Positions 4,549 through 62,535 of a stretch of 64,000 nucleotides of DNA are shown piece after piece (position 1 is the stretch's first letter; the number at the start of each line of letters is the position of its first letter). The stretch is from a virus. Its lineage: Duplodnaviria; Caudoviricetes. The stretch covers positions 9,075 through 73,074 of the IMG/VR virus record IMGVR_UViG_3300036783_000183; one strand, given 5' to 3'. The position numbers were made by a program, and so were the translations under genes. The notes below the pieces were generated by a model. It searched no databases. It saw only the letters and a program-made list of their open reading frames with translations, and was not told where the DNA came from.

Positions 4549-4860
4549 GTGAGAAATTCCTTCAGCCTGAGCCGGTACCGGACGGTCGGCGTCATCATCG
4601 ACCTGCACCAGGCCGAGCTGCGGCACCGCAAGCGGCACAAGGGGGATCCGAAGTGTCCCTGCGGCGGGGAGCACCCGGTCGAGGTCGAGGTGGACATGGA
4701 GCGGGCGGACCTCGTGCCGGTCCCCGAGATCCCGGTGTTCCTGGGCATCGGCGAGGCCCTCCAGCGGCTGCACGAGCTGGCGCACCCCGAGGGCACGCTG
4801 TACGTCCAGAACTGCCGCGAGCCGGAGTGCCGGGAGATCCAGGACTCCTGGCTCCCGTAG
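4549..4860 (+). CDS. Hypothetical Cys-containing protein
   Basis: ORF fills the gap up to the next promoter; CPCGG and CREPEC motifs. Confidence 0.5.
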   Translation: MRNSFSLSRYRTVGVIIDLHQAELRHRKRHKGDPKCPCGGEHPVEVEVDMERADLVPVPEIPVFLGIGEALQRLHELAHPEGTLYVQNCREPECREIQDSWLP

Positions 4861-4865
4861 CCCCC

Positions 4866-4897
4866 GATTTTGCATTATCAAGGTTTATTGATATCCT
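4866..4897 (+). promoter_or_regulatory. Promoter/operator copy 2 (TTTGCA...TATCAAGGTTTATTGATA, -10 TATCCT)
   Basis: 30 bp identical to 7078-7107. Confidence 0.75.
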
Positions 4898-4930
4898 GGT
4901 GTCATCAGCACGACGCACCGAGGAGAGACT

Positions 4931-5962
4931 GTGAGCACCGAGACCGACACCCGCACCGATGAGCAGCTGGCCGCCGACCCGCACGCGTTCGATGAGAAGC
5001 TGGCCGGCCTGTACGACGCCTGGGCGAAGGCTACCGCCGCCCGCGACCGCGCCTGGGAGCAGATCCACACCGCCGCCGGCGATCACCGGGACTACCGGGG
5101 CCGCAGCTCCCGGGCCTGGGGACGCACCCACACCGAGGTCGAGCAGACCGTCCGGCAGATGGCCGCTCACAGCGTGCCGCTCCCGGCGTCCATGGGCTTC
5201 CGGCAGACCCCGGGCGACCTGCTGGTAGCGCTGCGCGACGCCGACGCCTCACTGGCCCAGGCCGCGCTGGCCGTCCACGAGATGGAGGCCATCTACGCCC
5301 GGCCGGAAAACCGCTGGCAGCGGTTCTTCCCGTGCACCAACAGCGACGGGCACATCCACGACAGCTACCGTGGCTGCCCGAGCGTCCGCTGGGACACCCC
5401 GATGGCCTGGCGCCCGGACCTGTCCGGCCTGACCGTCGAGGAGGCCGTGCAGATGCCGCCGAAGGGCCTGGGCCCGGCGCTGTGCAGCATCTGCTTCCCG
5501 CTGGCCCCGGTCGAGCTGAAGTCGATGACCACCGGCCAGGTCGAGAAGGAGCGCACCCGCGCCGAGCGCGAGGCCGCGAAGGCCGTCCGCGAGCTGGCGA
5601 AGGCCGCCAAGCAGCTGGCCGGGGACGAGCAGTTCCGCACCGAGGGCCGCTTCGGCGAGACCGTCACCACCGTGGCCAGGTGCAAGGAGATCATCCGCCA
5701 GGCCATCGACGAGGAAGTCCAGCTGGAGTACTACAGCCGCCCCGGCGCCGAGCAGGAGTGGCAGGGCGACAGCGAGAGCTTCGCCCGGGTGCGCGGCAAC
5801 GTCGCCGACCGGCTGGCCGAGCTGCAGCGGGACGCCGGGCGCGCCGCCGCCGTCCTGACCGGACGCGAGGCCGCCCACGAGGGGTGGGGCGCGACCCAGG
5901 CCGCCATCACCAAGATGCAGCAGAACAAGTACAAGAGCGCACGCAAGGAATGGGGACTCTGA
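4931..5962 (+). CDS. Hypothetical protein with H/C motif (GHIHDSYRGCPS, LCSICFP)
   Basis: 343-aa ORF with a GAGGAG RBS, behind the promoter. Confidence 0.7.
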   Translation: MSTETDTRTDEQLAADPHAFDEKLAGLYDAWAKATAARDRAWEQIHTAAGDHRDYRGRSSRAWGRTHTEVEQTVRQMAAHSVPLPASMGFRQTPGDLLVALRDADASLAQAALAVHEMEAIYARPENRWQRFFPCTNSDGHIHDSYRGCPSVRWDTPMAWRPDLSGLTVEEAVQMPPKGLGPALCSICFPLAPVELKSMTTGQVEKERTRAEREAAKAVRELAKAAKQLAGDEQFRTEGRFGETVTTVARCKEIIRQAIDEEVQLEYYSRPGAEQEWQGDSESFARVRGNVADRLAELQRDAGRAAAVLTGREAAHEGWGATQAAITKMQQNKYKSARKEWGL

Positions 5963-6237
5963 TGAGCGAGCTGCCCGAGAAGAGCGAACCCGAGATGTCC
6001 GACGACAAGGCGTACAGCATCGTGCACCTGCGCCGGGCCGAGATCGAGGATCCGGCGGTGCGCGCCAGCTGGCAGGCTCGCGGGTACGCCACGCTGGGCC
6101 CGGTCGAGGGCCACGACCCGCATGTCCGGTGCCCGATCTGCTCGACCGACGAGCCGCCGGAGGACTGCGCGCTGTGCGGCCAGGGCCCCTGCGCGTTCAC
6201 CGGGAAGGCCCGGCGCGCGGCGGACGAGCAGCCATGA
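5962..6237 (+). CDS. Small Cys-rich protein
   Basis: TGATG coupling; CPIC and CALC motifs. Confidence 0.5.
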   Translation: MSELPEKSEPEMSDDKAYSIVHLRRAEIEDPAVRASWQARGYATLGPVEGHDPHVRCPICSTDEPPEDCALCGQGPCAFTGKARRAADEQP

Positions 6238-6575
6238 GCCGCACCGGCAAGCGCAGGCGGCGGCACCCGGGGCGGGCCAGCTACCGGGAGCAGGCACGGG
6301 CCCAGACGCTGGACGAGGCCCAGGCGGTCTACCTGGACCACCTGCACCGGGAAGACCCCGGCCAGGCGCGGGACTGGAACAGCGCCCCGCCGCCCGGCCG
6401 CAGGCGCCAGGGGCGGCCGGCGATCCCCCGGACCGCGCAGCGCGGCGGGGACCGCTACGAGCGGGCCAGCGTGTCCGACATCGAGCGCGTCTACACGGGC
6501 GCCCCGGACACGAAGCTCTTCTACGTCACCACCGCCGAGGGCAAGATCGTCATGCTCAAGATCACGAAGGACTGA
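6234..6575 (+). CDS. Hypothetical protein
   Basis: ATGA coupling; MSRTGKRRRRH... Confidence 0.55.
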   Translation: MSRTGKRRRRHPGRASYREQARAQTLDEAQAVYLDHLHREDPGQARDWNSAPPPGRRRQGRPAIPRTAQRGGDRYERASVSDIERVYTGAPDTKLFYVTTAEGKIVMLKITKD

Positions 6576-6576
6576 G

Positions 6577-6876
6577 ATGAAGCGCACCCAGCCCTTCACC
6601 GGGACGGGCCACCCGCCCTGGTGGCAGGTCTCGGAGAGCTACGAGCACCGGGGCACGCCGGTCACGCGGGGCCAGCGGCTGACGCTGACGGGCGGGCGCA
6701 CGGTGTACACGTTCGTGAACCACACCGTGGCGCCGCCCCGGCCGGGCAGCGGCAAGCGCAAGACGGCGGAGTGGATCACCGTCCTGGGGCCCGCCGGGTA
6801 CCGCTCGGTGCGGCCGGACCAGATCGGCCGGGTGCTGCCGCCCAGGAGGGCCCGGCGGAAGCGGGCCCCGGCATGA
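6577..6876 (+). CDS. Hypothetical basic protein (SH3-like beta fold possible)
   Basis: ORF track; tightly packed with neighbours. Confidence 0.6.
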   Translation: MKRTQPFTGTGHPPWWQVSESYEHRGTPVTRGQRLTLTGGRTVYTFVNHTVAPPRPGSGKRKTAEWITVLGPAGYRSVRPDQIGRVLPPRRARRKRAPA

Positions 6877-7079
6877 TCATGACCCAGGTCACGGCGGATG
6901 ACTGGCGGGGCTTCGCGCTGACCATGATCGACGCCGGCTGGTGCCCGCAGACGCTGACGCCACTGCGGGACACCGGCTGGTGCACCGACTGCCAGATCTG
7001 GTGGACCGTCGAGGGCAGCGACCGGGAGGTAGTGCGCACCCGGTACCCGCTCCCCGGCGTCCGGGAGCCCGAGCCCTGA
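6873..7079 (+). CDS. Small Zn-ribbon-like protein
   Basis: ATGA coupling; WCPQT...WCTDCQIWW. Confidence 0.5.
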   Translation: MIMTQVTADDWRGFALTMIDAGWCPQTLTPLRDTGWCTDCQIWWTVEGSDREVVRTRYPLPGVREPEP

Positions 7080-7109
7080 TTTTGCATTATCAAGGTTTAT
7101 TGATATCTT
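7078..7109 (+). promoter_or_regulatory. Promoter/operator copy 3 (-10 TATCTT)
   Basis: 30 bp identical to 4866-4895. Confidence 0.75.
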
Positions 7110-7137
7110 GATGGCTGACACCAACTGAGGAGACACC

Positions 7138-7629
7138 GTGAACGACAACTACGACAACGCGAAGGACGACGCGGCTATGCTGGCCCGGCTACTCGACGAA
7201 GGGCCCGAGGTGAGAATCAACCTCGGCGAGAGCCCGCTGTGCCGGTGGTGCTGGCGGCCGGTCTACCGCACGAATCTCACATCCGTCCGGCGCTGGAGCC
7301 TGGTGCGCCGGGAGTACCCGAGCCGCACCTTCAACTGCGACGCTCGCAGCGACGGCGAGGGGCTAAGCCGGCTGCCGCACGAGCCGGCCGGCGCCGTGTT
7401 CGCGTCCATCACCGTGCTGATCGCCAACGCCGCCCGGATCGCCCTGGCGGCCACGGCGAGCCCGGAGTACAACCAGGAGCGCCTGCACGTGATGGCCCAG
7501 CTGATCTGCCTGACCGCCGGGGTATCCGAGGAGCACGTGCCCTGGGCGATCACCGCGATCATCCGCAAGGCCGCCGAGGCCGACCCCGCGTTCCGCACCG
7601 CCGCCGCTGACTGGCCGGTGACCCCGTGA
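7138..7629 (+). CDS. Hypothetical protein
   Basis: GAGGAG RBS and GTG start after the promoter. Confidence 0.65.
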   Translation: MNDNYDNAKDDAAMLARLLDEGPEVRINLGESPLCRWCWRPVYRTNLTSVRRWSLVRREYPSRTFNCDARSDGEGLSRLPHEPAGAVFASITVLIANAARIALAATASPEYNQERLHVMAQLICLTAGVSEEHVPWAITAIIRKAAEADPAFRTAAADWPVTP

Positions 7630-8048
7630 ACGCCGCCGAGGCCGGCGCCGTCTGGCAGCTGATGCAGGAGGCACTGCACGGCCACGCCGAGCAGCTGCGC
7701 CGCGACGCGGCCGGCCGGAGTAACGCCGGCCCGCACCTGGCCAGCTACCGTGCCCGGCTGCGCGAGGAGCGCAAGCTGGCCCTGGCCGTCGAGGAGATGG
7801 TCAGCGGCATCGACCCGGCCACGCTGACGGCGTTCCTGATCATCAGCCGGACCCGGCCGCAGGACTACCCGGGCGGCCCGGAGCTGTGGGCGGTCGGCGA
7901 CAGCAAGGACGCCGACCGGCGGGCCCTGCTCTGGAGCCGGGCCGGGCACCCGCACCACCGGTTCTCCGGCGGCCAGCACGAGAAGATGTGCCGGGTCTGC
8001 ACGGGCGACCGCGACGGCCCCCAGCACCAGCCGTTCGGCCCGTCATGA
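7626..8048 (+). CDS. Hypothetical protein with C-terminal Zn-binding motif
   Basis: GTGA coupling; HPHH...CRVC...QH. Confidence 0.6.
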   Translation: MNAAEAGAVWQLMQEALHGHAEQLRRDAAGRSNAGPHLASYRARLREERKLALAVEEMVSGIDPATLTAFLIISRTRPQDYPGGPELWAVGDSKDADRRALLWSRAGHPHHRFSGGQHEKMCRVCTGDRDGPQHQPFGPS

Positions 8049-11087: not shown

Positions 11088-11189
11088 ATGCCTGCCGGGC
11101 CTCGCCTCGCCGAGCCGCACCTCGACGGCCGCACCACGCCGGGCCCTCCCTCACCGGGCCCTGCCTAGCCTTGACTGCCTTGCTGCCTG
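11088..11189 (-). ncRNA. GGY-NN pentamer mini-array (2 guide-like units)
   Basis: Minus strand: GGCAG TCAA GGCTA GGCAG GGCCC GGTGA GGGAG GGCCC GGCGT GGTGC GGCCG TCGA GGTGC GGCTC GGCGA GGCGA GGCCC GGCAG GCA. Delimiters at 11173 and 11124, 49 nt apart. Confidence 0.65.
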
Positions 11190-12119
11190 CTAGCTGAGAG
11201 GATTCACGACCGGAGTGTCCGGCGGAGGCTCCTCAGTTTCCGCTGACGGCTTCCAGCACCATGCCGGCCCCATGTTGAACAGCCCGATGACCCAGCTGCC
11301 GGGCAGGCCCGATGACGGCGGCCTCGGCTCGTAGCTGGGCAGGTCGTTGCTGACGTAGTACGTCGGCACCGCGAAAGCCCGGACCAGCGCGTCGCCTTCC
11401 TGGAGCCACGTCCAGATGCCACGGTTCATGTCCGGCACGTCGGGATGGCCGGGGAGCTGGTCGGGGTCGATGCTCGGGTAGCCGACCGGCGGATCCGGCC
11501 AGATGACCGGCGGGTAATAGATCGGGTGCTCGGGATGCGCGCCCTCCGGCGGCGTCGGCGGCGGCAGCACGATCGGGTGCGCCGGGTGACCGGGTGACGG
11601 CCAGATACCCGGGGGCGGGCCGCCCGACGCAGGCGGGTAGTAGATCGGCGGCGTCGGCGTCGGCTGCGGCCCCGGAAGACCGATGTCCACGTACGGGGGC
11701 AGGTAGATCGGATGCGTCGGCACCCCTGGAGCAATCGCATCGGGAGGGATCACGATCGGATGCGCCGGCTCGACCGGCGGAAGGACGATCGGGTGTGTCG
11801 GCACCCCTGGAGCGATGGCCCCGGGAGGGATCACGATCGGGTGCGTAGGCTCACCCGGAAGGTAGATCGGGTGCGCCGGGACGCCAGGCGCAATCGCGTC
11901 AGGAGGGATCACGATCGGGTGCGCCGGGACCGGCGGGTAGTAGATCGGCGGGGTGACGCTCGGCGGCGGGCCGCCCGGGGCGATCGGGTGGGCGGGCCAG
12001 CCGGGCACCCCGAAGCCGGGGTCTACCGGCCCGGTGGGCGGGTAGTAGATGGGCGGAGTGGGTGTTCCGCCAGGTCGCTCTGGCACCCACGCTTCGACGA
12101 TGACGTACTGCCGGCCCAT
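11190..12119 (-). CDS. Proline-rich repeat protein (PxHPI[VY][IL]PP repeats)
   Basis: 309-aa ORF with a GGAGAG RBS; ~10 HPI repeats, including three near-identical HPIVIPPxAIAPGVP units. Confidence 0.8.
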   Translation of the reverse strand: MGRQYVIVEAWVPERPGGTPTPPIYYPPTGPVDPGFGVPGWPAHPIAPGGPPPSVTPPIYYPPVPAHPIVIPPDAIAPGVPAHPIYLPGEPTHPIVIPPGAIAPGVPTHPIVLPPVEPAHPIVIPPDAIAPGVPTHPIYLPPYVDIGLPGPQPTPTPPIYYPPASGGPPPGIWPSPGHPAHPIVLPPPTPPEGAHPEHPIYYPPVIWPDPPVGYPSIDPDQLPGHPDVPDMNRGIWTWLQEGDALVRAFAVPTYYVSNDLPSYEPRPPSSGLPGSWVIGLFNMGPAWCWKPSAETEEPPPDTPVVNPLS

Positions 12120-12174
12120 GGCTCTCCTTTTTCTCTATGATTACTGATTCACCGATGATGCTACAGGTACCTTG

Positions 12175-13605
12175 ATTGCTTTACCACGCCGGGCCGAGCC
12201 TCACCAGGACCTGCCTAGACGCAACTGCCTTGCCGCGCGATGCCGAGACGAGCCCCGACGAGACGTACTCACCCTGCCCAGCGCCGACTGCCATGCCCGG
12301 CGTTGCCGGGCCAAGACCCGCCGTTCCCCGGCGAGCGGTACCACGACTGCCTTGCCCGGCCAGGCTGCGATGTGCCCCGCCTTCCCGTACCACGCCCGCC
12401 AGGCGATGACCCACCGCGCCACGCGGTGACCAGCCCTGCCTACCCGCACCCGGCCAAGACGGCCTCGCCGCCCTTGCCTCGCCAAGCGACCCACGCCAGG
12501 CCCAGATCGGCCGCGACTGCCGTGCCAGGCTAGGCCAGGACTGGACGTACCGAGACCCGCCGTGCCATGACTGCCTCGCCCTACGCTCCGTGCCGGACCG
12601 AGCGCCACCGGGCCCAGGCATGCCGAGCCCCGCGTTTGCCTGCCCAGCCTTGCCCTGCCAAGCCGCGCTCTGTCATGCCTAGCCGGAGCCCTGCCTAGCG
12701 CTGACTGCCCTGCCTCGCCAGGCCAAACAGCCCTCGCCGGGGAGTGCCCCGCCTGGACGGCCGAGCCACGCCATGCGCTCCCGCCGTTCCGCGCCGTGCG
12801 CCGCCACGTGGTGCCAGGACACGCCGCGCCTGGCCTTACCTGCCGCGCCAAGCCTTGCACAGCCAGGGCGCGCCGTGCCTTGCGCCTCCGGCCGCGCCAA
12901 GCATCACCTCGCGACGCCACCCCGTGCCTAGCCCGGCCATCCTGCCGGGCCCCGCCATGCCTTGCCGCTCTGCGCCAGGACTCGCACGACCCGGCCAGGC
13001 CTAACCTGCCCTGCCGTGCCATGCCTCTCCTGGCCCGGACATGCCAAGCCTTGACTGCCGTGCCGCACCGTGCCAAGCGATGCCCTGCCCAGCCGACCAG
13101 GACGAGCCTGCCCCGCCAGGCCGGGCCTTGCCGAGCATCGCCCTCCCCGCACTGCCCAGACGGCCTCACCCGTCCGTGCCAGGACGCACCTGGCCAGGCT
13201 TTGCCTCGACGGCCGGGCCAGGCCTTGCCTTGCCTTGCCATGACACGCCAGGACACGCCACCGCCACGCCAAGCCGAGACGGCCATGCCTTACCGCGCCG
13301 TGCCGAGCTATCGGCGACGGGCCTTACCACCCCGGCTGTCCCAGCCTCGCCTGGCCTTGACCGGCCGCGCCACGCCTTGACTGCCATGCCATGCCGTCCA
13401 TGCGCCGCTACCCGGGCGTCCCGGTCCAAGCCACGGCTGCCTCGCCTGGCCTTGCCTGGCCCGTCCAGGCGGTGCCTGGCGATGCCTCTCCTGCCATGCG
13501 AAGCCCAGCCCAGCGTTGCCAGGCCCTGGGCCGCCATGCCATCCGGCCCTGCGCTGCCGCGCACCGCCCAGCCCAGCGGGGCCTCGCCACGTCCAGCCGT
13601 GCCAT
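12175..13605 (-). ncRNA. Large GGY-NN pentamer array (VIPR-like guide RNA array) downstream of the RAMP operon
   Basis: Sustained 5-nt period on the minus strand (GGCAC GGCTG GACGT GGCGA GGCCC...). GGC(A/C)GTC delimiters appear as gactgcc/gacggcc at 12286, 12345, 12458, 12515, 12569, 12703, 12756, 13053, 13159, 13208, 13278 and 13379. No credible ORF. Confidence 0.8.
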
Positions 13606-13614
13606 AAACAAGCC

Positions 13615-13649
13615 GGGGCCAGGACGGGCATGGCTGTCGTCCTGGCCCC
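13615..13649 (-). other. Perfect 12-bp GC-rich hairpin between the RAMP operon and the array (processing, leader or terminator element)
   Basis: GGGGCCAGGACG-N11-CGTCCTGGCCCC, followed on the minus strand by GGCTTGTTTAT and then the first pentamer. Confidence 0.6.
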
Positions 13650-13668
13650 GGGGCCCCGCGAGATCATC

Positions 13669-14157
13669 TCAGGCTTCGAGCACGAGCGGCTCGTCACCGC
13701 CGTTGTCGCCGTCGTCGCCGTCATCTGACGGCGGCGTGTCCCGGCGCACCATCCGGATGAAGTCCTCGAAGTGGTCGTACTTGCGCCGCAGCGCCCGCCA
13801 CTCCATCTCCATCTGGCGCTTCAGCTGCGCGGTCATGACCTCGTTCGCCTTGATCTCGTCCAGGGGAACGTAGGCCCGGCCGCCCGGGGCCGAGGGCACC
13901 GGCATCGAGTGGAACACCCGGATCTGCTCCGGGTGCCCCCGCGCGCCCACGTAGACCTCGCGGATCACGCGGACGAGCTGCCGGGCCTGCTGCACCCGGT
14001 ACTTCGGGCCCGCGACATCATCGCGCCACTCGAAGTGCGAGTGCAGCAGGTGCGCCGGATCCGAGGCGGCCTCGACGATCATCCTGGCGGTCAGGATGCC
14101 GCCGTTGGCCGCCCGGATCGCGAGCAGCTCGGCTTCGATCTCAGCCTTGGTCGCCAC
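13669..14157 (-). CDS. Conserved partner protein of the RAMP-like gene
   Basis: LLAIRAANGGILTARMIVEAASDPAHLLHSHFEWRDDVAGPKYRVQQARQLVR; overlaps the RAMP gene by 17 nt. Confidence 0.8.
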   Translation of the reverse strand: MATKAEIEAELLAIRAANGGILTARMIVEAASDPAHLLHSHFEWRDDVAGPKYRVQQARQLVRVIREVYVGARGHPEQIRVFHSMPVPSAPGGRAYVPLDEIKANEVMTAQLKRQMEMEWRALRRKYDHFEDFIRMVRRDTPPSDDGDDGDNGGDEPLVLEA

Positions 14158-15085
14158 TGCCGGCGTCCTCGGCGAGGCCCTCGCCCTCGACGGAGCCCTC
14201 GATCGCGGCCTTGTCCTTGGCCTTGGCCTTGGGCAGCTCCTCGGGCGGGGTGTCGAGCAGCGCGAAGTCGTCCAGGGTCAGGATCTCCCCGTCATTCTCG
14301 TCGAAGGCGTAGGCGGACAGGTCCGGCGCGTACTCGGCCGGCAGCTCGTCCATGATGCCGATCGCGTCGTCGTGGTCGGCGATCCGGAACGTGCCGAACT
14401 CCCCGTTGCGCTCCGGCCGCCATTCCCCGACGCCCACGCCCATGCCGCCCGCCTCGATGAGCGAGACCAGCGAGTCGCGGTCGATCAGGTTCTTGGTGTA
14501 GGAGACGTACAGGGTCGCCGACCACCTGGGGAAGCAGCCCCGGTAGCGCAGGTCGGCCGGGTGGTTGACGCCGGCCAGCCGCACGTAGTCCTCCCGCATC
14601 ATCGGCCGCCCGTCGAGCACGACCATGCGGCTCGGCTCGGTCGGCACGGAGACGCCGTAGAAGAACATGAACTGGCGAAGCTCGGTCATCTTGACCTGCT
14701 TGCCGTAGTAGCGCCCGGCGCCGATGGTGGCCATCTTGAAGGCCATGGCCGGGATGCCGAACCGGACCTCGCCGGTCTCGCCGTTGACGCCGGCCCGGTA
14801 CAGCGAGGCCAGGAACTCCCGGCGCGGATCGCGCTTCTCGGGCTGGCGCCGCACGCCCTGCTGGGCGGCGAGCATCTGCGTCTTGGCCTTCTCGGAGAAC
14901 CGGCTGACGATCAGCGGCGAGGTGCCCACGATGTCGATCGCGAGCAGCTCGGTCTCGATCGGCTTGATGACCAGCTTGGCCGGGCCGCCGGCCGGGGCGG
15001 CCGAACGGCCGCGAGCGGCGCGGGTAGTGCTGACGGTCTGGCCGTCTGCTGCCGGAGCTTCCGGCGTAGCCTGAGGTGCAGGCAT
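14141..15085 (-). CDS. Stand-alone RAMP/Cas7-like RNA-binding protein (Vipr-like)
   Basis: RAMP-like motifs: first strand IDIVGTSPL, GIPAMAFKMA (cf. Cas7/Csm3 IPGSSLKG) and the Gly-rich loop GGMGVGVGEWRPERNGEFGTF. No cas1, cas2 or CRISPR repeats nearby. Confidence 0.75.
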   Translation of the reverse strand: MPAPQATPEAPAADGQTVSTTRAARGRSAAPAGGPAKLVIKPIETELLAIDIVGTSPLIVSRFSEKAKTQMLAAQQGVRRQPEKRDPRREFLASLYRAGVNGETGEVRFGIPAMAFKMATIGAGRYYGKQVKMTELRQFMFFYGVSVPTEPSRMVVLDGRPMMREDYVRLAGVNHPADLRYRGCFPRWSATLYVSYTKNLIDRDSLVSLIEAGGMGVGVGEWRPERNGEFGTFRIADHDDAIGIMDELPAEYAPDLSAYAFDENDGEILTLDDFALLDTPPEELPKAKAKDKAAIEGSVEGEGLAEDAGSGDQG

Positions 15086-15157
15086 GGTTCATTCCCTCCT
15101 CGGGGGTTTGAATCGTGTCGCCGCCCCCGGCCGTATCCGGGGGTGGCTTATGCAGAG

Positions 15158-15187
15158 ACAATACTGATACGCGAAACGCATTGTCAA
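15158..15187 (-). promoter_or_regulatory. Sigma70/HrdB-type promoter for the RAMP operon (TTGACA-N18-TATTGT)
   Basis: tgtcaa at 15182-15187 and acaata at 15158-15163 on the + strand; ~70 nt upstream of ATG 15085 and its GAGGAGG RBS. Confidence 0.7.
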
Positions 15188-15257
15188 AGAACCTTGGTAC
15201 GGAAATATCAAGGTTTATTGATATTCCCCGGGAAAATTGTCAAAAAATCTTGGTACG
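15181..15257 (+). promoter_or_regulatory. Operator/promoter copy (TATCAAGGTTTATTGATA, 15206-15223) flanked by the direct repeat TTGTCAAA(G/A)AA(C/T)CTTGGTACG
   Basis: Direct repeats at 15181-15201 and 15237-15257 in the divergent intergenic region. Confidence 0.6.
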
Positions 15258-15438
15258 TGGTACGGTTCTGACAGGTCCCGCCCGGACACCCGCCCCCGAG
15301 GCCAGGGGGCGGTTCGCCAGCCTGGTGCACCGAACGGCAAGCGTGGTCCGCAGCCGGACCCGGGGGCGTATAGGCAGTCTGGCCGGCTTCAATCCGGCGC
15401 GTCCGGGCGGGATCCCGGCCCGCGCCCGGGGAGGAACG

Positions 15439-24311: not shown

Positions 24312-27300
24312 TCAAGGAACCATAGCAGTGTGCCGCGCGGCGCGCTCGGTAACGGTGCCCTGCCGCTCGGCGTGGCCGTAGTAGCGGATCTCCGCCGGGA
24401 CGTGAGTCAGGCCCAGCTCCAGCGCCGCGTCCCGGCGGTGGTTGCCCTCATTCAGCTCCGGGTCCTGCCCGTGGTCGACGGTGATGAACACCGGGTTGCG
24501 GATCCCGTTCTCGGCGATGTCGCGCTTGAAGTCCTCCCACTTCTCGCCCTGCCGGTTGCGGTGCTCGCCGGGTCGCTCGCCGCGTGCGCCGCGCATATTC
24601 GAGATTTCCGAAACAGGAATCATCCCGCGCTCGCTGCGGGTGATGTGGCTCGGGTCGCCCACCGTCCCCTCGTACTCGTGCACCTCCAGCTGCGGATCGG
24701 CCGCGCCGACCTTGCGGACCCGGTGCAGCGGGATCCTGGCGTGGGTCGCGGCGTAGCCCTCGGCCGAGGCGTGCCAGGCGTCGTCCGGGTGGTAGTCGAT
24801 CTGGTAGGTGTCCGCGCGGTCGCCCCCGGGGGTGTGGTGCCGCCAGCGCTCGTCCGGGGCCGCCGAGGCGCGCGTGTAGCCGCTGTGCGCCTGGAAGTAG
24901 CCGCGCTGCCGCGCCAGCTCCATCTCACTGGGATGGGCGACCCGGTACAGGTGCTCCGGGGGCTGGCCGGCCAGCAGCAGCCCGTGCGGGCCCTGCGCGA
25001 TATGGCCGCCGTACAGCTCGCCGGAGGACGGCAGGACGGGCTTGTGCTCAGACGGGGGCGCGGGCTGACTCAGCACCTCGCTGAGCCGCTGCAGCAGCCT
25101 CTCCATCTCGTCATCCGGGTCGGCGGCAGCGGTCTTCACGGGCGACGGCTGGTAGCTGAACTCGTCGGTCCAGTCGCTTTGCGCCAGGCGGGCATGCGCA
25201 GCGGGCACGGTCTTGCTGTAGACCTTCTCACCGGGGCGGAAGTCCTGCGGGTAGTGCGGGGTCAGGCTCACCCAGTCGCCCGGCTGGATCTCCCCGCCGG
25301 CGCGGTACAGCGTGACGGGGTGATCGGGCTTCCCGCGAGCCCTGTCGATGATGCCCCGGAGCTGATCGGCCGGGCCGTAGAAGCCGGACCCGTACCCGTA
25401 CTCGCGGTCGTAGTCCGGGTGGTCAGCCAGTTCGTGCAGGGCGGGCCCGGTCCCCGGGCGCTCAGCCGTCTGGTGCGGGAGCGCTGCCGTCGCCTGCCCG
25501 GGATGCCAGCTGGTGCCATCGGAATAACTCACGCCGTGCTCCGAGCCCGGGTCGTGCGGGCTTATCCGCTCCGGGCCGATGTCCTGGGTGGCCATCCAGG
25601 CGGGCTTCTCGCCGCTCTTCGGGTTGGTGTAGGTCCGGTCCTCGGTCAGCGGCAGGCCGGACACGTCGATCTTGTACATGTGGTGATCGGCCATCTCCCG
25701 GCGCCAGGCGTCGGTGCCGGGGTGCCCGTGCTCGGGCGGCACGTGATAGACGCGATCGGTGGCTGTCAGGTAGACGGCCCTCGGCGGGTCATCGGGCAGC
25801 ATGCCCGCGCTGGGCCGGGCCGGGATGCCGTGCGCCAGTGTCTGCTCGTGGTACTCCGGCATCTGCACCCGGTACATGTGCTCGCCGGGCTGCCCGGTCC
25901 TGGTCTCCGGCGGCTGCTTCCAGTGCGCCCGGCCCCGGCCATAGGTAATGGCATGCCGCCGGATCACCGTCACCGGGTCGTGGGAAGCGTAGCCGCCCAC
26001 TCCCCGGCCCTCCTGGACCTCACCCTGGGGCTCGACCTCGTAGACCCGCACCGGGCCCTCGTGGTAGTCATCGGTGCCCCACAGCCGCGCCTGGTCCGGG
26101 TCGGTGGTGAAGTGCACCCGGCGGTTCTCCAGGTTGCTGCGCAGCGTGGCACCGTCCGGGATCTCGGCGCGGGTGCCATGGTAGTAAGCGGCGGTCTTGC
26201 CCTGAGTGCGGAAGTCCTTGACCAGCACCGGCACCGGCTTGTCGTAGCCCGCCTCGTTCAGCGCGAATGTCCGGTGGTGGCCGTTCCACAGCCAGGAGTT
26301 CTCGTCATCGTGGACCAGGGTGATCGGGTGGCTGGGCGGGTAGCTGTGCGTGTCGCCGCTCATCCCGCCGTGGCGCCGGGGCTGGTAGCCATGCTGGCGG
26401 ATGTCCTCGGCCAGCTCGCTGATGTGGCGAGACCCGCTAGGATCCTGCATGCGCCAGGCCTCACGGCTGGCATACGGCAGAAGGTCGCGCGGGTGGATCC
26501 GCTGGACGTACTGCCGGTACAGGGCCGCCGTCTTCGTGCCGCGCGGCCGGGGCGGCTCGTAGCCCTCGTCGTGCTCGTCGCGGGCCAGCCGGTGCCGCTC
26601 CGCGCCGGGGAAGAACAGGTGCTTGTGATCGATCCAGTCGCCGACCCGGCGGACGTGCTGCAGCAGCGGCTCGCCGTCGTAGCCGACCCCGGCGATCTCG
26701 CCCCGGACCAGGTGGGCGGTCTCGTCAGGCTTGTCCTCGCCGTAGTACCGGTTGCGCTCGGCCTTGACCAGCCGGCCCTGCATCTCCTCGCGCGGGTCGT
26801 TGTCGGGGCCCTCGGTGTCCAGGTCGCAGTCCGGCTCGCACCACTCGTCATGGACGTGACCACGGTCCAGGCCGTGGTCGATATCCGGGTTGCCGTGCTT
26901 GTTCAGGTCGTAGACACTGACGCCGGTCTCGTGGTAGCCACCTGCCGGGCTGAAGGAGCGCTCGCTCTTCGGCCAGTGGCCGAACCGGAGGTAGAGACCC
27001 GTCTTCTCCGAGCCGCTGTAGTCCCAGACGGCCGTGACTGCCAAGCCCTGCCCAGACCCGCCGGGCCTTACCCGTCCAAGCGACGCCTGGCCGAGCGACA
27101 ACTGCCGTGAGCTTGCCTGCTTGTCCACCCGGCTGCGCCTGACTTTATCCCACGAAGCTGCAAAGCCGGGATGCAGTGCGCCCTCGTCCTTCAGGTCCTG
27201 GATCTCATCTTGCTTAAACCAGGCATGGCCCTCGGCCTCGAAGCCGGTCGAGCCGCCGCCCTTGGGCTGGAACTTGTCCCTGGCATCAGCGACGTGGGTA

Positions 27301-29729: not shown

Positions 29730-32700
29730 GAGAAGCCCCCGCGTCAGCCGTGGTCATGCCCTGGGCAAGTGCCTGCGGGTGGCCGTCGCCCGGCCCGTAG
29801 ATCACCTGCTTGAGCTTGCCGACCAGGGCGCCGCTGGCCTGGTCGAGGGCCTTCTCCAGGACGTTGCCGGTGCCCTGCCAGCCCATCCCGCCGGGGCCGA
29901 ACGACTCGGCCCGGCCCTCGTGGATGTAGCGCCAGATCCGGCTGGCCTCCTGCCGGCGGAACGGCTCGGGCAGCCGCAGGATGGCGCGCACCTCGGCGAT
30001 CAGCGCGCGGGCCTGCTGCATCAGCGCCGGGCCCTGCGGGAACTGCTCAGCCGACCACTGCGGCAGGTCCGGCGGCTCGACCGTCCAGGTGTCGTCGGAC
30101 AGGTTGTAGGCGGCGTACGGCTTGATGGCGCGGATGTCAGCGGTGTGGATGACGTAGCCGGTCAGGTCGTAAGTGCCGTCCGGGTCGAACGGCGGGTGCC
30201 AGCCGGGGGCGTTGAACCGCTCGCGCAGGACGGTGTTGAGCCGGTGCTCCAGCTCCTCATCCGTCATCTTGTCCAGGCCGGGGTGCGCCAGCCGGGCGTG
30301 ACTGTGCGAGATGCCGACCAGGACATCCAGGTCGCCGTTGCCGGTCAGGTCCGGGCTGGTCCACCGCGAGGCCTGCGAGCCGGCCAGCCAGGCCGTGGTG
30401 ACCAGGTGCCAGTCCGGGCCCAGCGCGTTGCCCAGGACGGTGCCCAGGCGGCTCATCAGCTCGTCCCGGACGGCCGGGCGGAGCTTCTCGTACTCGTCGA
30501 ACAGCCGGTGGTCCAGGCCGTAGGTCGGGCCGAAGATGCGCTCGGTGGGCGTGAAGACGGCCGTGCGGGAGCCCTCCTCCCTGCGCTGGCGGCAGGCGTC
30601 CGCGTCGGCGCACTCCATCGCCAGGCCCATCACGGGGGCGTACGGGCTGGCGCGCGTGAACTCCGATTTACCCGCCCGCACGCCGCACTTCCAGCACTCC
30701 TCCTGATCCGGCTGGAGCGGCTTGCGCCGGGCCCTGGCGCCCGTGCGAGGCGGCTGCTCGGGCTCGTGGTCCTCGCCGGCCAGGTGGTGCTGGGTGATCT
30801 GGATCTGGCCCGGGTCGAACGCGATGGCCGACCGGTTGCCGAGCTTGCCGTACCGGGACTTCTCGTACTCGTTGCCGTAGGTGACGCCATCGTGGCCCTG
30901 GGCCTGCAGCCGCTTCTTGAACCGGTCGGCGATGTCCCACTTGTCCGGGTGGGTGTTCAGCCAGACGGTGCGCATCGGGTGGCCCGCGAACGGGGTATGG
31001 AAATGCCCGTAGGTACTGGCCGGGATCTTGTCGTGGCCGTAGTCCTGCGCGATCCGGTGCGCATGCGGCCACATCTCCTCGACCTCGTACCGCTCGTCGT
31101 CCTCGTCGCCCTCGTCATCGTCGCTATAGTGCTTGCCGAGGCCGGAGATGTGACTGTCAGGGTGGTTCCCGGCCGCGTGCTCGTGCTCGTAGGCCTCGTG
31201 GTCCATGTCGTGCTCGGAGTCGTAGTGCTTGGGGTTCTTCAGCCCCAGCCGGGCGTGCACGACGCCCTCGGGCGGCTCTTCGTCGTCCCAGCCGTGGCGC
31301 TCGCTGGCGCCGGAGGAGTGCTCGCCCCGGGCGAACTCCTCGGCGATGTCGTGGTCGGCGGTGAAGTGCGTGCCGAGCAGCGCGTTCCAGTGGCCGCCCT
31401 CCTCGGACTCGGGCATCTCGTAGGCACCCGGGTGCACGTCGGCCGGATGGTAGAAGCCCTTGCCCAGCTCCTCGTGAGACGCCTGCGTGCCGTGAAACCA
31501 CTCGCTCCCGCCCGTGTGCGGGTTCTGCAGGCCCGGCATCGGCAGGACGGCCTCGTGCTGATTCCACTCGTCCCTGTTGGTCCAATGACCGGGGTCATCG
31601 GGACCTCTGCCGAGGTGGTCAGGGTCGTCCGGGTCCATCCAGCCCTCGTGCTGGCGGGTGGGGACCTCGCTGAGACCCGCCCGCTCGGCCGCCAGCAGCC
31701 GCGTGTGGCCGTTCATGACGCGCGGCGGGCTGGACTCGTAGTCGACCGGGATGGGCCGCTTCACGCCGTTCTGACGTACATCATCGACGAACGCGCGGAC
31801 CGTGGGGTGCTCCCAGACGATGTTGTGACGGACCTCATCCCAGGTACCGAAGTCGGTCGGGGCGTAGTGATCGAGCATGTGCCGGACGGAATCGGTGCGC
31901 TCGGCCGCCGGAATGGCAGTGGCCGTGCGTTCGCGCTCCGCGCGCTCGGCGCGCCGCTTCTCGCGCCGCTCGCGGTTCTGCGCCTCGTACGCCGAGTACA
32001 TCTCCTCCGGCTCATGCTCATGGCACATCGCGTCGGTCCGGCCGCCGCGCGGGCCCTTGCCCCGGTGGTTCTTCCCGCCGCTGAAATGGACCAGGCCGCG
32101 ATTCACCCGGGGGCCCGTGTACGACCACTCGTCCAGGGAGTTGCCCTCGTTGCGCAGGTGCTCGGCGCGGGCCTGGAACTTGACCACCGGGTAATCGTCG
32201 TCGGAGTTGGTGCTCGTGCGCCCCTCGGAGCGGGCATACCGGGCCGAGGTCGATACCCAGTCGCCCGTGTTGATCTCGCGGTGCGGCGAGGGCAGCGCCC
32301 GGTAGGCCCAGACCTTCCGGGAGGGCCAGTCCCGGGACCGGTGCACCTTGTCCATGGACTCCTCGGTGGCGCCCAGCTGGTACTCCCACGGGCGCTCGCG
32401 GAAATCGGTCGGCCAGATCTTGCCCGAGCCGATCTCGTGCAGCCCCTCGCCCTCGCCGGGGTCCGGTCCCTCGTGCTGCATCCGGTACTCGTCCGGGTTG
32501 GTGGCCATCCGGAACCAGGGCACGGAGCCAACGTGGGCCGACCCGATGCGCCGGAACACGGCGGTATGAACCTGGCCGCCGTGCAGCTGCTCGTAGTGGT
32601 GCACCTCCAGGGCGTCCCCGGTGCCGGTGCGCCACTCCCGCATGCCGCCCAGGGGATAGCCCTGGGCCCCGGGCCGGGGCCGGACGTGCAGCAGCGCGAA

Positions 32701-52823: not shown

Positions 52824-53075
52824 CACCTGCCAAACCTGACCATGCCGCGCCGAGCACAAACGTGCCGATCTGCGCCGTGCCTTACCCAGACTGCCAGGCC
52901 AAACCTCGCCACGTCCCGCCGCACTCCGCCTCGACTGCCTAGCCCCGCCTGAACGGACCCCGCCCGGACATGCCTCGCTAAGCAAAGCCTCGCCGCGCCA
53001 GGCCTCGACTGCCATGCCTCACCGCGCCCCACAGTGCCAGACCCCGCACTCCGCACCTCGCCGCGCTGCGCCGCG
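52824..53075 (-). ncRNA. GGY-NN mini-array (about 4 units)
   Basis: Delimiters at 53007, 52933 and 52889 (spacings 74 and 44, both 5n+4); 5-nt period throughout; ends in GGCAGG. Confidence 0.7.
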
Positions 53076-53103
53076 CCTTCACGCTATAATCATAGCGTGA
53101 AGG
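53076..53103. other. Perfect 12-bp hairpin at the 5' end of the mini-array
   Basis: CCTTCACGCTAT-AATC-ATAGCGTGAAGG. Confidence 0.6.
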
Positions 53104-60505: not shown

Positions 60506-60549
60506 GTCCCTTCCGGGGGCAGAGGATGTGCTATAAATATTGATATTCA

Positions 60550-62535
60550 TGGCGCAAGGCAAGGCGCGCATCGGCGGGCCTCGGCGTCGGCCTGGCAGTC
60601 ACGGAGGGGCTTGGCGCGGATTGGCAGGTCTTGGCAGTGCTCGGCGAGGCAGTCATCGCGAGGCATGGCACGACATGGATAGGCGTCGTCCGGCAAGGCA
60701 GTCAAGGCGTCGCATGACCGGGCGTGCCTGGGCGAGGCTTGGCAAGGCAGTCTAGGCGCAACGTGGCGCGGTCGACCCTGGCATGGACCGGTACGGCAGT
60801 CACGGCGTGGTGCGGCGAGGATGGCAGCGCGAGGCGTGGCCTGGTGAAGCACGGCAGTCATCGCGAGGCCGGGCGCAGCATACCGAGGCTAGGGACGGCC
60901 TGGCCGTCATCGCTAGCCTGGGCTCGGCACGTCAGGGCCAGGCGTGGCATGGCATGGCCGTCATCGCACGGCAAGGCGTAGCACGGCGGGTCCTTGCATG
61001 GCATCGCAGGTGAGGCGCGGCTGGGCTTAGTGACGCGTAGCGTGGCCGGGCAGTCGAGGACTGGCTAGCGCGGCTTCACCTGGCGGTGTGTCGCCTGGCA
61101 CGGCCGTCATCGCGTGGCGGTGCCTGTCCTGGGCGGCTCGGCGTCGCGGTGCACGGTACGGCATGGCCGGATCGGCTCGGGTGGGCGCGGCTAGTCGAGG
61201 CATGGCAAGGCACGGCTCGGCAGGATCGGCCAGGCGCGGGTTGGCCAGGCAGGGCAAGGCACGGCTCGGCCGGGCTGGGACCGGCAGTCAGGTCAGGGTA
61301 CGGCGTAGCACGATACGGCTCGGCCGGGCTTGGACCGGCAGTCATGGCATGGCTCTCTAAGGCGCGGCTGGTCGAGGCACGGGCTGCTCGGCTCGGCGCG
61401 GCTCGGCCGGAACGGCTTTGTTTGGCGTAGCGGGGCGCAGCTGGGCTTAGCTTGGCAATGCTTGGCCCGGCAAGGCAGGTATAGCTGGGCTGTTCAGTGC
61501 TAGGGCGGTGCGGCGCGGCGAGGCAGTCTAGGCATGGCGGGTCAGGGCATCTCGGTGCGAGGCCCGGTATGGCCAGGCAGTCAAGGCTAGGCGTGGCCTT
61601 GCAGGGCCTGGCGCGGCCCGGTCCGTCTCGGCAGTCACGGCAAGGCAAGGCGAGGACAGCCGGGCGCAGCAGTCAAGGTGAGGCCTGACCAGGCGAGGCG
61701 TGTCAAGGCTGGGCCGTCAAGGCAAGGCCTGGCGCGTCCTGGCAGGTCATGGTGAGGCACGGCTCGGCAGTCAAGGCTAGGCATAACGAGGCGGGGCGTC
61801 GTGAGGACAGCGGGGCCGTCAAGGCACGGCACGTCCCGGCAGGGCACGGCTAGTCTCGGCTTGGCTAGTCTGGGCCTGGCAGTTAAGGCGGGTCGGGGTT
61901 TGGCGCGGCAGGGATAGCCATGCTCGGCAAGGCAGTCACGGATCGGCACACCGGGTCGTGTCTTAGCGTGGCGAGGTCGGCCAGGCAGGCCGGGCACGGA
62001 GAGCTTGGCACGGATTGCGGGGCACGGCCGTCAAGGCGTAGCAAGGCCGGGCCAGGATCGCGTAGCGAGGCGCGGCTGGGCCGTCCAGGCTGATCTTGGC
62101 GGAGCGGTGCTCGGCACAGCTGGGTATCGCATGGCCCGGCACGGCAGTCATGGCATAGCGGGACGGGGCAGGTCAGGGACAGGCCTGGCCCGGCACGGCA
62201 GTCATCGCACGGCGCGGTGTGGCCAGACGCGGAGTGCATGGCACGGCGCGGCCGTCAGCGCAAGGCTGGGCCCGGCCAGGCCCGGACACGCGCGGCGGGG
62301 CTCGGCAGAGCCGTCAAGGCAGAGCGGGGCAGTGCCAGGCTGGTCCTGGCATGGAGAGCGCGGCCGTCCAGGTGCGGTTCGGGACGGCAAGGCGTGGCAG
62401 GTCGGGTCGAGGCGCGGCAGGTCAGGGCCGTCTAGGCGAGGCCTGGCCCGGTGTAGATAGCGCGGTGCGGCAGGGCCGTCATCGCACGGCGGGTCCAGGC
62501 GCGGCTAGTCTCGGTTAGGCAGGGTCGGCAGGCAG
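60550..62535 (+). ncRNA. Large orphan GGY-NN pentamer array (about 31 guide-like units)
   Basis: 31 GGC(A/C)GTC-type delimiters (4 degenerate) from 60594 to 62474; 27 of 30 spacings are 5n+4 or 5n+3, mostly 44-64 nt. AT-rich leader with ATTGATATT at 60539-60547; ends in GGCAGGCA. Confidence 0.8.

What the first reader, a model, noticed from the sequence alone, without database searches (positions are those of the whole stretch)
12175..15187. Stand-alone RAMP/Cas7-like protein, partner gene and GGY-NN pentamer RNA array: a non-CRISPR RNA-guided system (VIPR-like)
Seen: a TTGACA-N18-TATTGT promoter drives a two-gene operon. The first gene has RAMP hallmarks (IVGTSPL strand, GIPAMAFK, C-terminal Gly loop GMGVGVGEWRPE). 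After a perfect hairpin comes 1.4 kb of non-coding DNA with a strict 5-nt period on the same strand: a near-constant GG(C/T) triplet plus a variable NN, cut into ~50-60-nt units by GGC(A/C)G-TCNN. The many overlapping 'ARQG/PCLA' ORFs here are artefacts of that period. Established: Cas7-family RAMPs polymerise along guide RNA with a fixed nucleotide period. Inference: each subunit grips a GGY and exposes NN, so the concatenated NNs specify a gapped target, probably in competing phages or the host. This matches my recollection of recently reported VIPR systems (Vipr RAMP plus GGY/NN RNAs); I cannot verify that here, so the class may be known even if this locus is not.
Basis: partly seen in the sequence, partly recalled or inferred. 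Interest (0 to 1): 0.96.

Follow-up and report, generated by a model that had tools for sequence, protein, structure and literature searches.

The report
Phage VIPR system with staggered guide arrays
This is a genuine member of the recently described VIPR class: a large high-GC phage fragment that carries one Cas7-like Vipr gene, its usual partner gene and roughly a hundred GGY/NN guide units spread over five arrays.

Summary

**Locus.** A TTGACA-18-TATTGT promoter drives two minus-strand genes, at 14141-15085 and 13669-14157. A strong hairpin follows, then 1.43 kb of non-coding NNGGY pentamers. Lag-5 autocorrelation is 0.495, z = 15.6 against shuffles, and there is no 3-nt periodicity.

**Proteins.** A profile of the 314-aa protein's family hits the solved "SUSP1 Vipr protein" (PDB 36pp) at E = 3.8e-13. 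Its AlphaFold model matches Csm3/Cmr4/Cas7. The 162-aa partner lies next to vipr in about 134 of 150 related loci, and 140 of those 150 carry same-strand GGY arrays.

**Array grammar.** Guides of about 44-64 nt (5n+4) are separated by a 4-nt step, GGC-[A/C]-GTC. This fits the tail-less "staggered" architecture named in the 2026 VIPR preprint.

**New here.** The record is an IMG/VR phage fragment of 73 kb, about 46% complete. It holds one vipr but five arrays totalling about 6.5 kb, roughly 94 or more guide segments. The NN positions are nearly uniform in composition (46-49% GC in a 70% GC genome).

**Targets.** None were found. Self-targeting is absent, and the external scans gave only chance-level hits.

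**Verdict.** A new member of a known kind, with moderate interest.

The parts
15158..15187 (-). Sigma-70-like promoter of the vipr-vap operon (TTGACA, 18 nt, TATTGT)
   Evidence: Consensus scan found this as the only site in 12000-15400, matching 10 of 12 positions. The -35 box lies inside one copy of a 22-nt direct repeat.
15180..15257 (.). Two copies of a 22-nt direct repeat, ATTGTCAAA[G/A]AA[C/T]CTTGGTACG (15180-15201 and 15236-15257). Each contains a TTGACA on the minus strand, so they may be tandem promoters or an operator.
   Evidence: the repeat finder family D2, 91% identity, 56-nt spacing. No function was tested.
14141..15085 (-). vipr: a 314-aa Vipr (RAMP/Cas7-like) protein. The core is about residues 38-237. 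It also has a low-complexity N-terminal 37 aa and an acidic C-terminal tail of about 75 aa.
   Evidence: The family profile hits PDB 36pp_D 'SUSP1 Vipr protein' at E = 3.8e-13, nearly full length. The AF2 model has pLDDT 85.9. Foldseek gives Csm3/Cmr4/Cas7 at probability 1.0. 3094 representative clusters have E <= 1e-3. PHROG phrog_4652 also matches.
13669..14157 (-). vap: a 162-aa Vipr-accessory protein of unknown fold, mostly helical, with a weak HTH/winged-helix-like N-terminal 70 aa
   Evidence: tblastn finds a homologue adjacent to vipr in about 134 of 150 related loci. It matches phrog_15946 at E = 5e-23. It co-occurs with vipr in Gordonia and Mycobacterium phages. There is no significant PDB match, and the best structural scores are Z <= 5 to HTH/WH domains.
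13613..13654 (-). GC-rich hairpin followed by a U-tract, between vap and the array. It looks like a terminator or attenuator, or an RNA 5' boundary.
   Evidence: RNA fold gives -42.6 kcal/mol, z = -3.3 against shuffles. The related locus L002 has no such hairpin, and its array starts right after the vap stop.
12175..13606 (-). Array B, the finding: about 27 staggered vrRNA units of NNGGY pentamers. Units are 8-12 pentamers long and separated by a 4-nt step, [A/C]GTC.
   Evidence: Autocorrelation, register segmentation and absence of a coding signature. The related loci L002-L004 have a syntenic array.
11088..11190 (-). Mini-array of two units. It ends in the same conserved sequence that closes the array in relative L002. 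It is separated from array B by an inserted Pro-rich gene (11190-12119).
Evidence: Sequence read. Its end matches the L002 array end.
52826..53081 (-). Array C: about 4-5 units with the same grammar, 38 kb from vipr
   Evidence: Period-5 scan, strand and segmentation.
60524..60537 (+). GGATGTGCTATAAA box immediately upstream of array D. The same 14-mer precedes array A outside the window. It may be an extended -10 promoter element for the arrays.
   Evidence: Identical 14-mers lie upstream of arrays A and D. There is a single exact copy in the window. Promoter function is inferred.
60551..62526 (+). Array D: about 38 units on the opposite strand, 46 kb from vipr
   Evidence: Period-5 scan. The GGY strand count is 270 against 67. 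47 of 56 junctions shift the register by -1.

Best explanation
The locus is a VIPR (Viral Interference Programmable Repeat) system carried by a large, probably lytic, high-GC actinobacteriophage.

**Shown here**
- The 314-aa protein is a Vipr, a minimal RAMP homologous to the solved SUSP1 Vipr.
- It sits with the accessory gene (vap) that accompanies this Vipr clade almost everywhere.
- It sits next to a same-strand array of NNGGY pentamers.

**Taken from the SUSP1 work**
- One Vipr protomer binds each pentamer.
- Adjacent protomers sequester the GGY.
- The exposed NN dinucleotides pair with double-stranded DNA while skipping every third target base (the xNN code).
- The bound filament represses transcription of the target.

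**Inferred for this locus**
- The array is transcribed, either by read-through of the hairpin after vap or from promoters of its own.
- The 4-nt step (GGC-N-GTC) every 8-12 pentamers breaks the filament register. It therefore defines individual tail-less guides of about 44-64 nt.
- The single Vipr serves all five arrays in trans, about 94 or more guide segments in about 6.5 kb.
- The targets are competing mobile elements or host or prophage DNA, not the phage itself.
For: **Protein**
- The family profile hits the SUSP1 Vipr (PDB 36pp) at E = 3.8e-13 over 188 of 218 profile positions.
- SUSP1 GGY-contact residues are kept: R138 to R182 (invariant), W178 to W222, R179 to R223 (invariant), D177 to E221.
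- The AF2 model has pLDDT 85.9 and matches Csm3/Cmr4/Cas7 at Foldseek probability 1.0.

**Array**
- Lag-5 z = 15.6 with no codon periodicity.
- GG[C/T] is at 83-87% per position, and NN is close to uniform.

**Association**
- 140 of 150 loci fetched by Vipr homology have a same-strand period-5 GGY array beside vipr.
- About 134 of 150 have the vap homologue.
- The -1 register step is the rule across the clade.
- The relatives L002-L004 are syntenic, with vipr, vap and a 1.39-kb array.

**Phage context**
- The record encodes a terminase, UvsX-like recombinase, DnaE, Prim-Pol and resolvase.
- It is an IMG/VR virus record, 46% complete.

**Self-targeting**
- There is none, as the preprint reports for native guides.
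Against: - No RNA data exist for this locus. The preprint confirmed ribozyme-interspersed and single-vrRNA architectures by sRNA-seq but not staggered arrays.
- A strong terminator-like hairpin lies between vap and array B, so co-transcription is uncertain.
- About a third of pentamers depart from GGY (587 of 885 are canonical).
- The SUSP1 H17 position is Ser in this subclade.
- No natural target was found for any guide. Real and shuffled guides scored the same on 2 Mb of related loci. Exact scans of IMG/VR and the metagenome collection gave nothing, or hits at the rate expected by chance.
Confidence: 0.92

Rival explanations
1. It is a VIPR-derived locus, but the arrays, especially the remote ones, are not offensive guides. 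They would act as decoys or sponges that titrate Vipr proteins of competing elements, or as regulators of the phage's own expression programme.
For: The October 2026 preprint reports satellite-encoded solo vrRNAs that redirect a phage's VIPR. Four of the five arrays lie 1-46 kb from vipr, and at least two seem to have their own promoter box. No external targets were found.
Against: A cognate vipr sits on the same record. No guide matches the phage's own 73 kb above the shuffled null, 0.730 against 0.729, which argues against self-regulation. NN content is high-entropy and differs between relatives, as expected of targeting guides.
Confidence: 0.05
2. The 5-bp periodic tracts work at the DNA level, for example as binding arrays for a DNA-binding protein or as structural or packaging DNA. 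The Vipr homologue would be only a neighbour.
For: The tracts are long, up to 2.4 kb, and one adjoins an AT-rich region with iteron-like repeats.
Against: The strand asymmetry is strong: GGY is always on the strand of the adjacent vipr in relatives, for example 179 against 54 and 707 against 72. Co-occurrence with vipr in 140 of 150 loci from many phyla, together with the exact published vrRNA grammar, makes coincidence untenable.
Confidence: 0.02
3. The region encodes low-complexity repeat proteins (the ARQG/PCLA open frames).
For: Several ORFs of 70-360 codons overlap it in different frames.
Against: The period is 5, not 3. Lag-3 identity is 0.24 against 0.33-0.34 in true genes. No frame shows the GC1 > GC2 << GC3 pattern of this record's genes. 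A register shift every 50 nt or so would break any frame.
Confidence: 0.01

Closest known systems
Type II VIPR of Escherichia phage SUSP1 (Vipr plus vap1 plus four vrRNAs; PDB 36pp, 36PK; bioRxiv 10.64898/2026.04.26.720920 and .720927)
   Same: The Vipr proteins are homologous (E = 3.8e-13), with the same G-loop GVG[D/E]WRP and thumb Arg. Both use GGY/NN pentamer guides of 9-16 repeats, have a two-gene operon, are phage-encoded, and have no cas genes or CRISPR array.
   Different: SUSP1 vrRNAs are about 100 nt, few in number, and each ends in an invariant 3' tail with a pseudoknot. Here units abut without tails and are separated only by a 4-nt step. There are roughly 100 of them in five arrays. 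This Vipr has extra N- and C-terminal extensions, and its vap gave no tblastn match in the three Pseudomonas phage records that carry a Vipr homologue. Homology of this vap to SUSP1 vap1 was not tested.
'Staggered vrRNA arrays' described bioinformatically in the VIPR preprint (fig. S18 legend)
   Same: The legend describes adjacent vrRNAs derived from positions overlapping by 1 nt, where the end of one marks the start of the next. That corresponds to the -1 register step seen here and across this Vipr-vap clade.
   Different: The figure and the type assignment are not available to me, so identity with that class is inferred from the legend. Most relatives use GGC-A-GGC at the step, whereas this subclade uses GGC-[A/C]-GTC. 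The preprint did not report sRNA-seq for this architecture.
Cas7-family backbone subunits of class 1 CRISPR effectors (Csm3, Cmr4, type VII Cas7)
   Same: The RRM core, G-loop and thumb fold are shared (Foldseek probability 1.0). Both polymerise along a guide RNA with a fixed nucleotide period and periodic base flipping.
   Different: Sequence identity is only 8-14%. There is no CRISPR repeat-spacer array, no other cas genes and no acquisition module. The period is 5 nt with 2 paired bases, instead of 6 nt with 5 paired.
Unannotated homologous loci in cultured actinophages (Gordonia phages UmaThurman, Pipp, Ecliptus and ODay; Mycobacterium phages Saal, Donkeykong and others)
   Same: The Vipr is 41-51% identical and the vap 28-40% identical. 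UmaThurman has a GGY array beside vipr.
   Different: These are 50-60 kb phages, and UmaThurman at least is temperate (it encodes an integrase and an immunity repressor). UmaThurman's array is about 0.5 kb; the others were not examined. The genes are all annotated as hypothetical proteins, and the UmaThurman array is annotated as a CDS (gp40).

Membership tests
VIPR system | Vipr protein homologous to characterised Vipr proteins | tested here: met
   A profile of 73 family members hits PDB 36pp_D 'SUSP1 Vipr protein' at E = 3.8e-13, covering residues 2-191 of 202.
VIPR system | Minimal RAMP fold with RRM core, glycine-rich loop and thumb | tested here: met
   The AF2 model has pLDDT 85.9. The top Foldseek PDB matches are Csm3, Cmr4 and Cas7 at probability 1.0, E about 1e-5. 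G214, G218 and G220 in the G-loop are invariant or nearly so.
VIPR system | Residues that hold the GGY bases in SUSP1 (H17, R138, D177, W178, R179) | tested here: met
   Mapping through the HMMER alignment against the residues named gives R182, E221 (conservative), W222 and R223. The H17 position is Ser61 in this subclade but His in the wider family consensus. Four of five are kept.
VIPR system | Tandem YNNGG (GGY/NN) repeats of at least 4 units near vipr on the same strand | tested here: met
   Array B starts 63 nt after the vap stop. Register segmentation gives 21 in-phase segments of at least 6 pentamers in B and 94 in the record.
VIPR system | GGY conserved while NN is hypervariable | tested here: met
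   Positions 3-5 are 83-87% G, G and C. NN uses all 16 dinucleotides, and a uniform model fits better than coding or genomic composition. Array content is not alignable with relatives apart from one unit.
VIPR system | Accessory vap gene in the operon | tested here: met
   The 162-aa gene overlaps the vipr stop. Homologues lie adjacent to vipr in about 134 of 150 loci. Which of vap1-6 it corresponds to could not be determined.
VIPR system | No CRISPR array or other cas genes; viral context | tested here: met
   There is a single Vipr match on the 73-kb record. No Rfam family, including CRISPR repeats and hammerheads, was found. The record is a virus record with phage replication and packaging genes. 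Not every ORF was screened for cas genes.
VIPR system | vrRNAs are expressed and form an RNP with Vipr | not testable with these tools
   This needs sRNA-seq or a pull-down.
VIPR system | Guides have natural targets under the 1-nt-skip (xNN) rule | tested here: inconclusive
   There are no self-targets and no excess over shuffled guides in 2 Mb of related loci. Exact scans of IMG/VR and the metagenome collection gave nothing or chance-level hits. The host is unknown and only exact matching was possible.
VIPR type II (SUSP1-like) | Each vrRNA ends in an invariant structured 3' tail or pseudoknot | tested here: not met
   Units abut directly, with only a 4-nt junction between pentamer runs. The locus is therefore not filed under type II.
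Class 1 CRISPR-Cas | Repeat-spacer CRISPR array and a multi-gene cas operon | tested here: not met
   No Rfam CRISPR repeat match and a single RAMP gene. The only periodic arrays have a 5-nt period.

The most novel reading that the evidence does not exclude
This is a large, probably lytic actinophage with an estimated full genome of about 160 kb. It spends at least 6.5 kb, about 9% of the recovered 73 kb, on roughly 100 tail-less guides in five separately placed arrays served by a single Vipr. The reading rests on three further observations:

- At least two arrays have their own conserved promoter box.
- The 4-nt 'staggered' junction would then be a punctuation mark that phases Vipr filaments and defines guides without a structured handle or a dedicated processing enzyme.
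- The near-uniform NN composition (46-49% GC in a 70% GC genome) hints at many targets that are more AT-rich than coding DNA, such as promoters of host or prophage genes.

Together this would be a genome-scale silencing programme rather than defence against one satellite.
Probability: 0.3. Interest if true: 0.7.

Novelty: new member of a known kind. Interest (0 to 1): 0.45.

Why it matters
VIPR was reported only in 2026, and experiments cover mainly the type II systems of E. coli and Pseudomonas phages. This locus matters for three reasons.

- **A natural example of the tail-less staggered architecture.** It comes from a high-GC actinophage and has a very large, dispersed guide repertoire. That bears on how guides are delimited without a 3' handle, how one effector is shared among many arrays, and how the arrays change. 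Evidence for change includes a 62-nt indel between near-identical relatives, adjacent-unit duplications, and a gene inserted into an array.
- **An annotation gap.** Homologous vipr-vap pairs sit unannotated in cultured Gordonia and Mycobacterium phages. In Gordonia phage UmaThurman a GGY array lies beside vipr and is annotated as a protein-coding gene. These phages grow on laboratory strains and would make tractable models.
- **No new principle.** It does not establish a new mechanism of guided recognition.

Tried and rejected
**Target searches**
- Self-targeting under the xNN rule: the mean best match of 94 guides on the array-masked contig was 0.730, against 0.729 for shuffled guides.
- Cross-targeting within 2 Mb of fetched VIPR loci: our guides at skip 0, 1, 2 and 3, and 507 guides from all loci at skip 1, gave real and shuffled distributions that could not be told apart.
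- Exact scans of IMG/VR with three 10-NN guides and one conserved 10-NN pattern gave 0 hits.
- The conserved 8-NN core gave 11 hits. These were in unrelated contexts, at 46-65% GC, with non-matching flanks, so I read them as chance.
- Metagenome scans gave 0 hits for one pattern. The other gave one hit in a 39% GC contig, which is about the number expected by chance and not a plausible target.

**Protein annotation**
- Pfam and NCBIfam gave nothing for either protein.
- For vap, no PDB sequence hit, no significant Foldseek hit, and VIA-align Z <= 5. A DNA-binding fold is suggested but not shown.

**Other dead ends**
- The search for related loci with the single protein found nothing, and alignment A1 was too diverse to use. 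The narrower alignment A3 worked.
- 'Relatives' are not available for a virus record, so the host could not be inferred that way.
- The VIPR type (I-VII) could not be assigned because the preprint's figures and supplements are not held.
- No hammerhead or other Rfam family and no tRNAs were found.
Full report
**What is in the sequence**

The window is bases 9075-73074 of a single 73,074-bp, 70% GC record. The tools treat it as an IMG/VR virus record: linear, with a CheckV completeness of 46%.

The locus reads on the minus strand.
- A TTGACA-18-TATTGT promoter lies at 15187..15158.
- A 314-aa gene follows at 14141-15085, then an overlapping 162-aa gene at 13669-14157.
- A GC-rich hairpin with a U-tract comes next (-42.6 kcal/mol, z = -3.3).
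- After that, 1.43 kb (12175-13606) has no frame with the coding signature of this genome.

In that stretch, identity at lag 5 is 0.495. Dinucleotide shuffles give 0.318 +/- 0.011, so z = 15.6. Lag 3 is 0.24, compared with 0.33-0.34 in the two genes.

**Grammar of the array**

I segmented the sequence by register. Runs of 8-12 NNGGY pentamers are separated by a 4-nt step, most often [A/C]GTC, which moves the register back by one base.
- The shift is -1 at 53 of 68 junctions in one array and 47 of 56 in another.
- Junction spacings are 5n+4 in 80 of 134 cases, with modes at 44, 49, 54, 59 and 64 nt.
- Over 885 pentamers, positions 3, 4 and 5 are G 83%, G 85% and C 87%. 587 pentamers are canonical GG[C/T], and the commonest variants are GTC, CGC, AGC and TGC.
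- The NN positions use all 16 dinucleotides and are 46% and 49% GC in a 70% GC genome. A uniform model fits them better than codon positions 1-2 of the phage's own genes, the antisense of those, or the genomic dinucleotide composition.

The two variable bases therefore escape the compositional bias of the genome, as expected of positions that carry information.

**The proteins**

The 314-aa protein has no Pfam or NCBIfam match, but it belongs to a very large family. 3094 representative clusters score E <= 1e-3, and they share a core of about 200 residues (38-237 here).

A profile of 73 members hits one solved structure convincingly: PDB 36pp chain D, "SUSP1 Vipr protein". The E-value is 3.8e-13 and the match covers residues 2-191 of 202.

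I mapped the contacts described for SUSP1 through that alignment:

| SUSP1 residue | Role | Residue here |
|---|---|---|
| R138 | thumb Arg | R182 (invariant) |
| D177 | G-loop | E221 |
| W178 | G-loop | W222 |
| R179 | G-loop | R223 (invariant) |
| H17 | RRM sheet | S61 in this subclade (His in the wider family) |

An AlphaFold model built with the alignment has mean pLDDT 85.9. Its best Foldseek matches in the PDB are Csm3, Cmr4 and Cas7 subunits of type III, VII and I-B complexes, at probability 1.0 and E about 1e-5. Compared with most relatives, this protein has a low-complexity N-terminal 37 residues and an acidic C-terminal tail of about 75 residues. Its closest homologues share both.

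The 162-aa partner matches only a PHROG of unknown function (phrog_15946). It has no PDB sequence match and no significant fold match. The N-terminal 70 residues resemble HTH or winged-helix domains only at Z <= 5, which is within noise.

**Association across genomes**

Using a narrower alignment I fetched 66 loci from prokaryotic genomes and 80 from IMG/VR that encode relatives of the protein. Four more had been fetched earlier.
- 140 of the 150 loci have a period-5, GGY-rich tract. In nearly all it lies on the same strand as vipr and directly adjacent.
- About 134 of 150 have a homologue of the 162-aa gene next to vipr.
- The -1 register step is the rule in all of them. The junction is GGC-A-GGC in most, and GGC-[A/C]-GTC in the subclade containing this phage.
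- The closest relatives show the same synteny. These are a 158.8-kb ENA vOTU and two shorter contigs with Vipr 68% identical. Each has a ~1230-aa gene, vipr, vap, a 1.39-kb array and a ~400-aa gene.
- Their arrays are 98% identical to one another but differ by a 62-nt indel.
- Between those relatives and this phage the arrays do not align, apart from the GGC backbone and one unit. That unit is the first of array B, whose last eight NN are conserved in L002 and L072.

This pattern of conserved proteins and fast-changing array content is what a guide array should show.

- Array A: record 5680-8010, minus strand, about 2.3 kb, just upstream of the window.
- Array B: the finding.
- Array C: window 52826-53081, minus strand.
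- Array D: window 60551-62526, plus strand.

The mini-array ends in the same sequence that closes the array in L002. So the Pro-rich gene at 11190-12119 appears to have been inserted into a once-continuous array.

Only one vipr is present on the record. Arrays A and D are each preceded by the identical 14-mer GGATGTGCTATAAA, which reads like an extended -10 element. Together the arrays cover about 6.5 kb and give 94 in-phase guide segments of six or more pentamers.

Relatives in IMG/VR also have multi-kilobase arrays, up to 4.25 kb within the fetched flanks. The size here is therefore at the upper end but not unique.

**Context**

The record encodes several phage functions:
- a terminase large subunit
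- a UvsX-like recombinase
- a DnaE-type polymerase
- a primase-polymerase
- a Holliday-junction resolvase
- an exonuclease
- two giant polyvalent proteins

The terminase is about 32% identical to those of 135-160-kb actinophages such as Rhodococcus phage E3 and cluster-C-like mycobacteriophages. With 46% completeness and relatives of 158-167 kb, the full genome is probably about 160 kb.

**Comparison with what is known**

VIPR systems were described in 2026 preprints.
- They consist of a Vipr RAMP, a vap gene and vrRNAs made of 9-16 YNNGG repeats.
- The NN dinucleotides recognise double-stranded DNA while skipping one base in three.
- Binding silences transcription.
- The natural targets are competing phages and satellites.
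- There are seven types and several array architectures, including "staggered arrays with overlapping vrRNAs".

The cryo-EM paper shows one protomer per repeat and two adjacent protomers holding each GGY.

This locus meets every defining feature that I could test. It lacks the 3' tail and pseudoknot of type II. Its grammar fits the legend for staggered arrays, an architecture the preprint did not confirm by RNA sequencing. I could not assign a type number, because the figures and supplements are not held.

**Targets**

Using the published xNN rule I found:
- no self-targeting
- no excess over shuffled guides in 2 Mb of related loci at any skip length
- no exact match in IMG/VR for four guides
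- only chance-level hits for a 16-base core and for one guide in the metagenome collection

The host is unknown and only exact matching was available against the large collections. This is therefore a weak negative, not evidence against targeting.

**Verdict**

The class is already published, so this is a new member of a known kind. It remains an informative example for four reasons:
- it has a tail-less staggered architecture
- one effector serves five dispersed arrays with roughly a hundred guides
- the variable positions are close to maximal entropy
- there are visible traces of array turnover

Expression, processing, the role of the hairpin and of vap, and the targets remain inferred.

Noticed in passing
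L001 (Gordonia phage UmaThurman NC_031249) 4551-5051: The CDS annotated as gp40 (L001 4619-4942), between the Vipr homologue gp39 and the vap homologue gp41, coincides with a period-5 GGY tract (66 GGY against 6 on the other strand). It is probably a vrRNA array misannotated as a protein. Here the array lies between vipr and vap rather than after vap.
   Followed up: partly
window 11190-12119 (-): A 309-aa Pro/Gly-rich gene with internal repeats of about 78-81 nt sits between array B and the two-unit mini-array. Relatives such as L002 have no gene there, so it looks like an insertion into the array. It has no Pfam or PHROG match.
   Followed up: partly
window 53080-53350 (-), upstream of array C: An AT-rich stretch (TTCAATTTTTATTATTTATTGATAAATC) is followed by four copies of a TGCCGTGGG-like motif and a CACGCTATGATTATAGCGTG palindrome. 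It resembles an origin or iteron region and directly adjoins array C.
   Followed up: no
window 15180-15257: Two 22-nt direct repeats, ATTGTCAAA[G/A]AA[C/T]CTTGGTACG, lie 56 nt apart. Each carries a minus-strand TTGACA. They may be tandem promoters or operator sites controlling vipr.
   Followed up: partly
window 24312-35757 (-): Two adjacent giant ORFs (1805 and 2011 aa) carry NUDIX, Arr-like ADP-ribosyltransferase and ParB-like domains. They look like the polyvalent proteins of phages and conjugative elements.
   Followed up: partly
L003 versus L004, array columns about 1062-1123 of alignment A2: Two contigs encode the identical Vipr but differ by a 62-nt indel inside the array, roughly one guide unit. 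Within this record, adjacent units in arrays A and D are 96% identical over 28-30 nt at a 54-nt offset. This suggests arrays change by unit loss and duplication.
   Followed up: partly
window 13546-13605 (-), first unit of array B: The last eight NN of this unit (GA CC TG TG GG GC AG AG) are conserved in relatives L002 and L072, whose other units differ. It may be a guide against a conserved target, or a leader element. No match was found in IMG/VR or the metagenome collection.
   Followed up: yes
loci L005-L070: Vipr-vap-array loci of this clade occur in genomes or MAGs assigned to many phyla, including Actinomycetota, Bacillota, Bacteroidota, Pseudomonadota, Chloroflexota, Spirochaetota and Saccharibacteria. 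Whether these are prophages was not examined.
   Followed up: no
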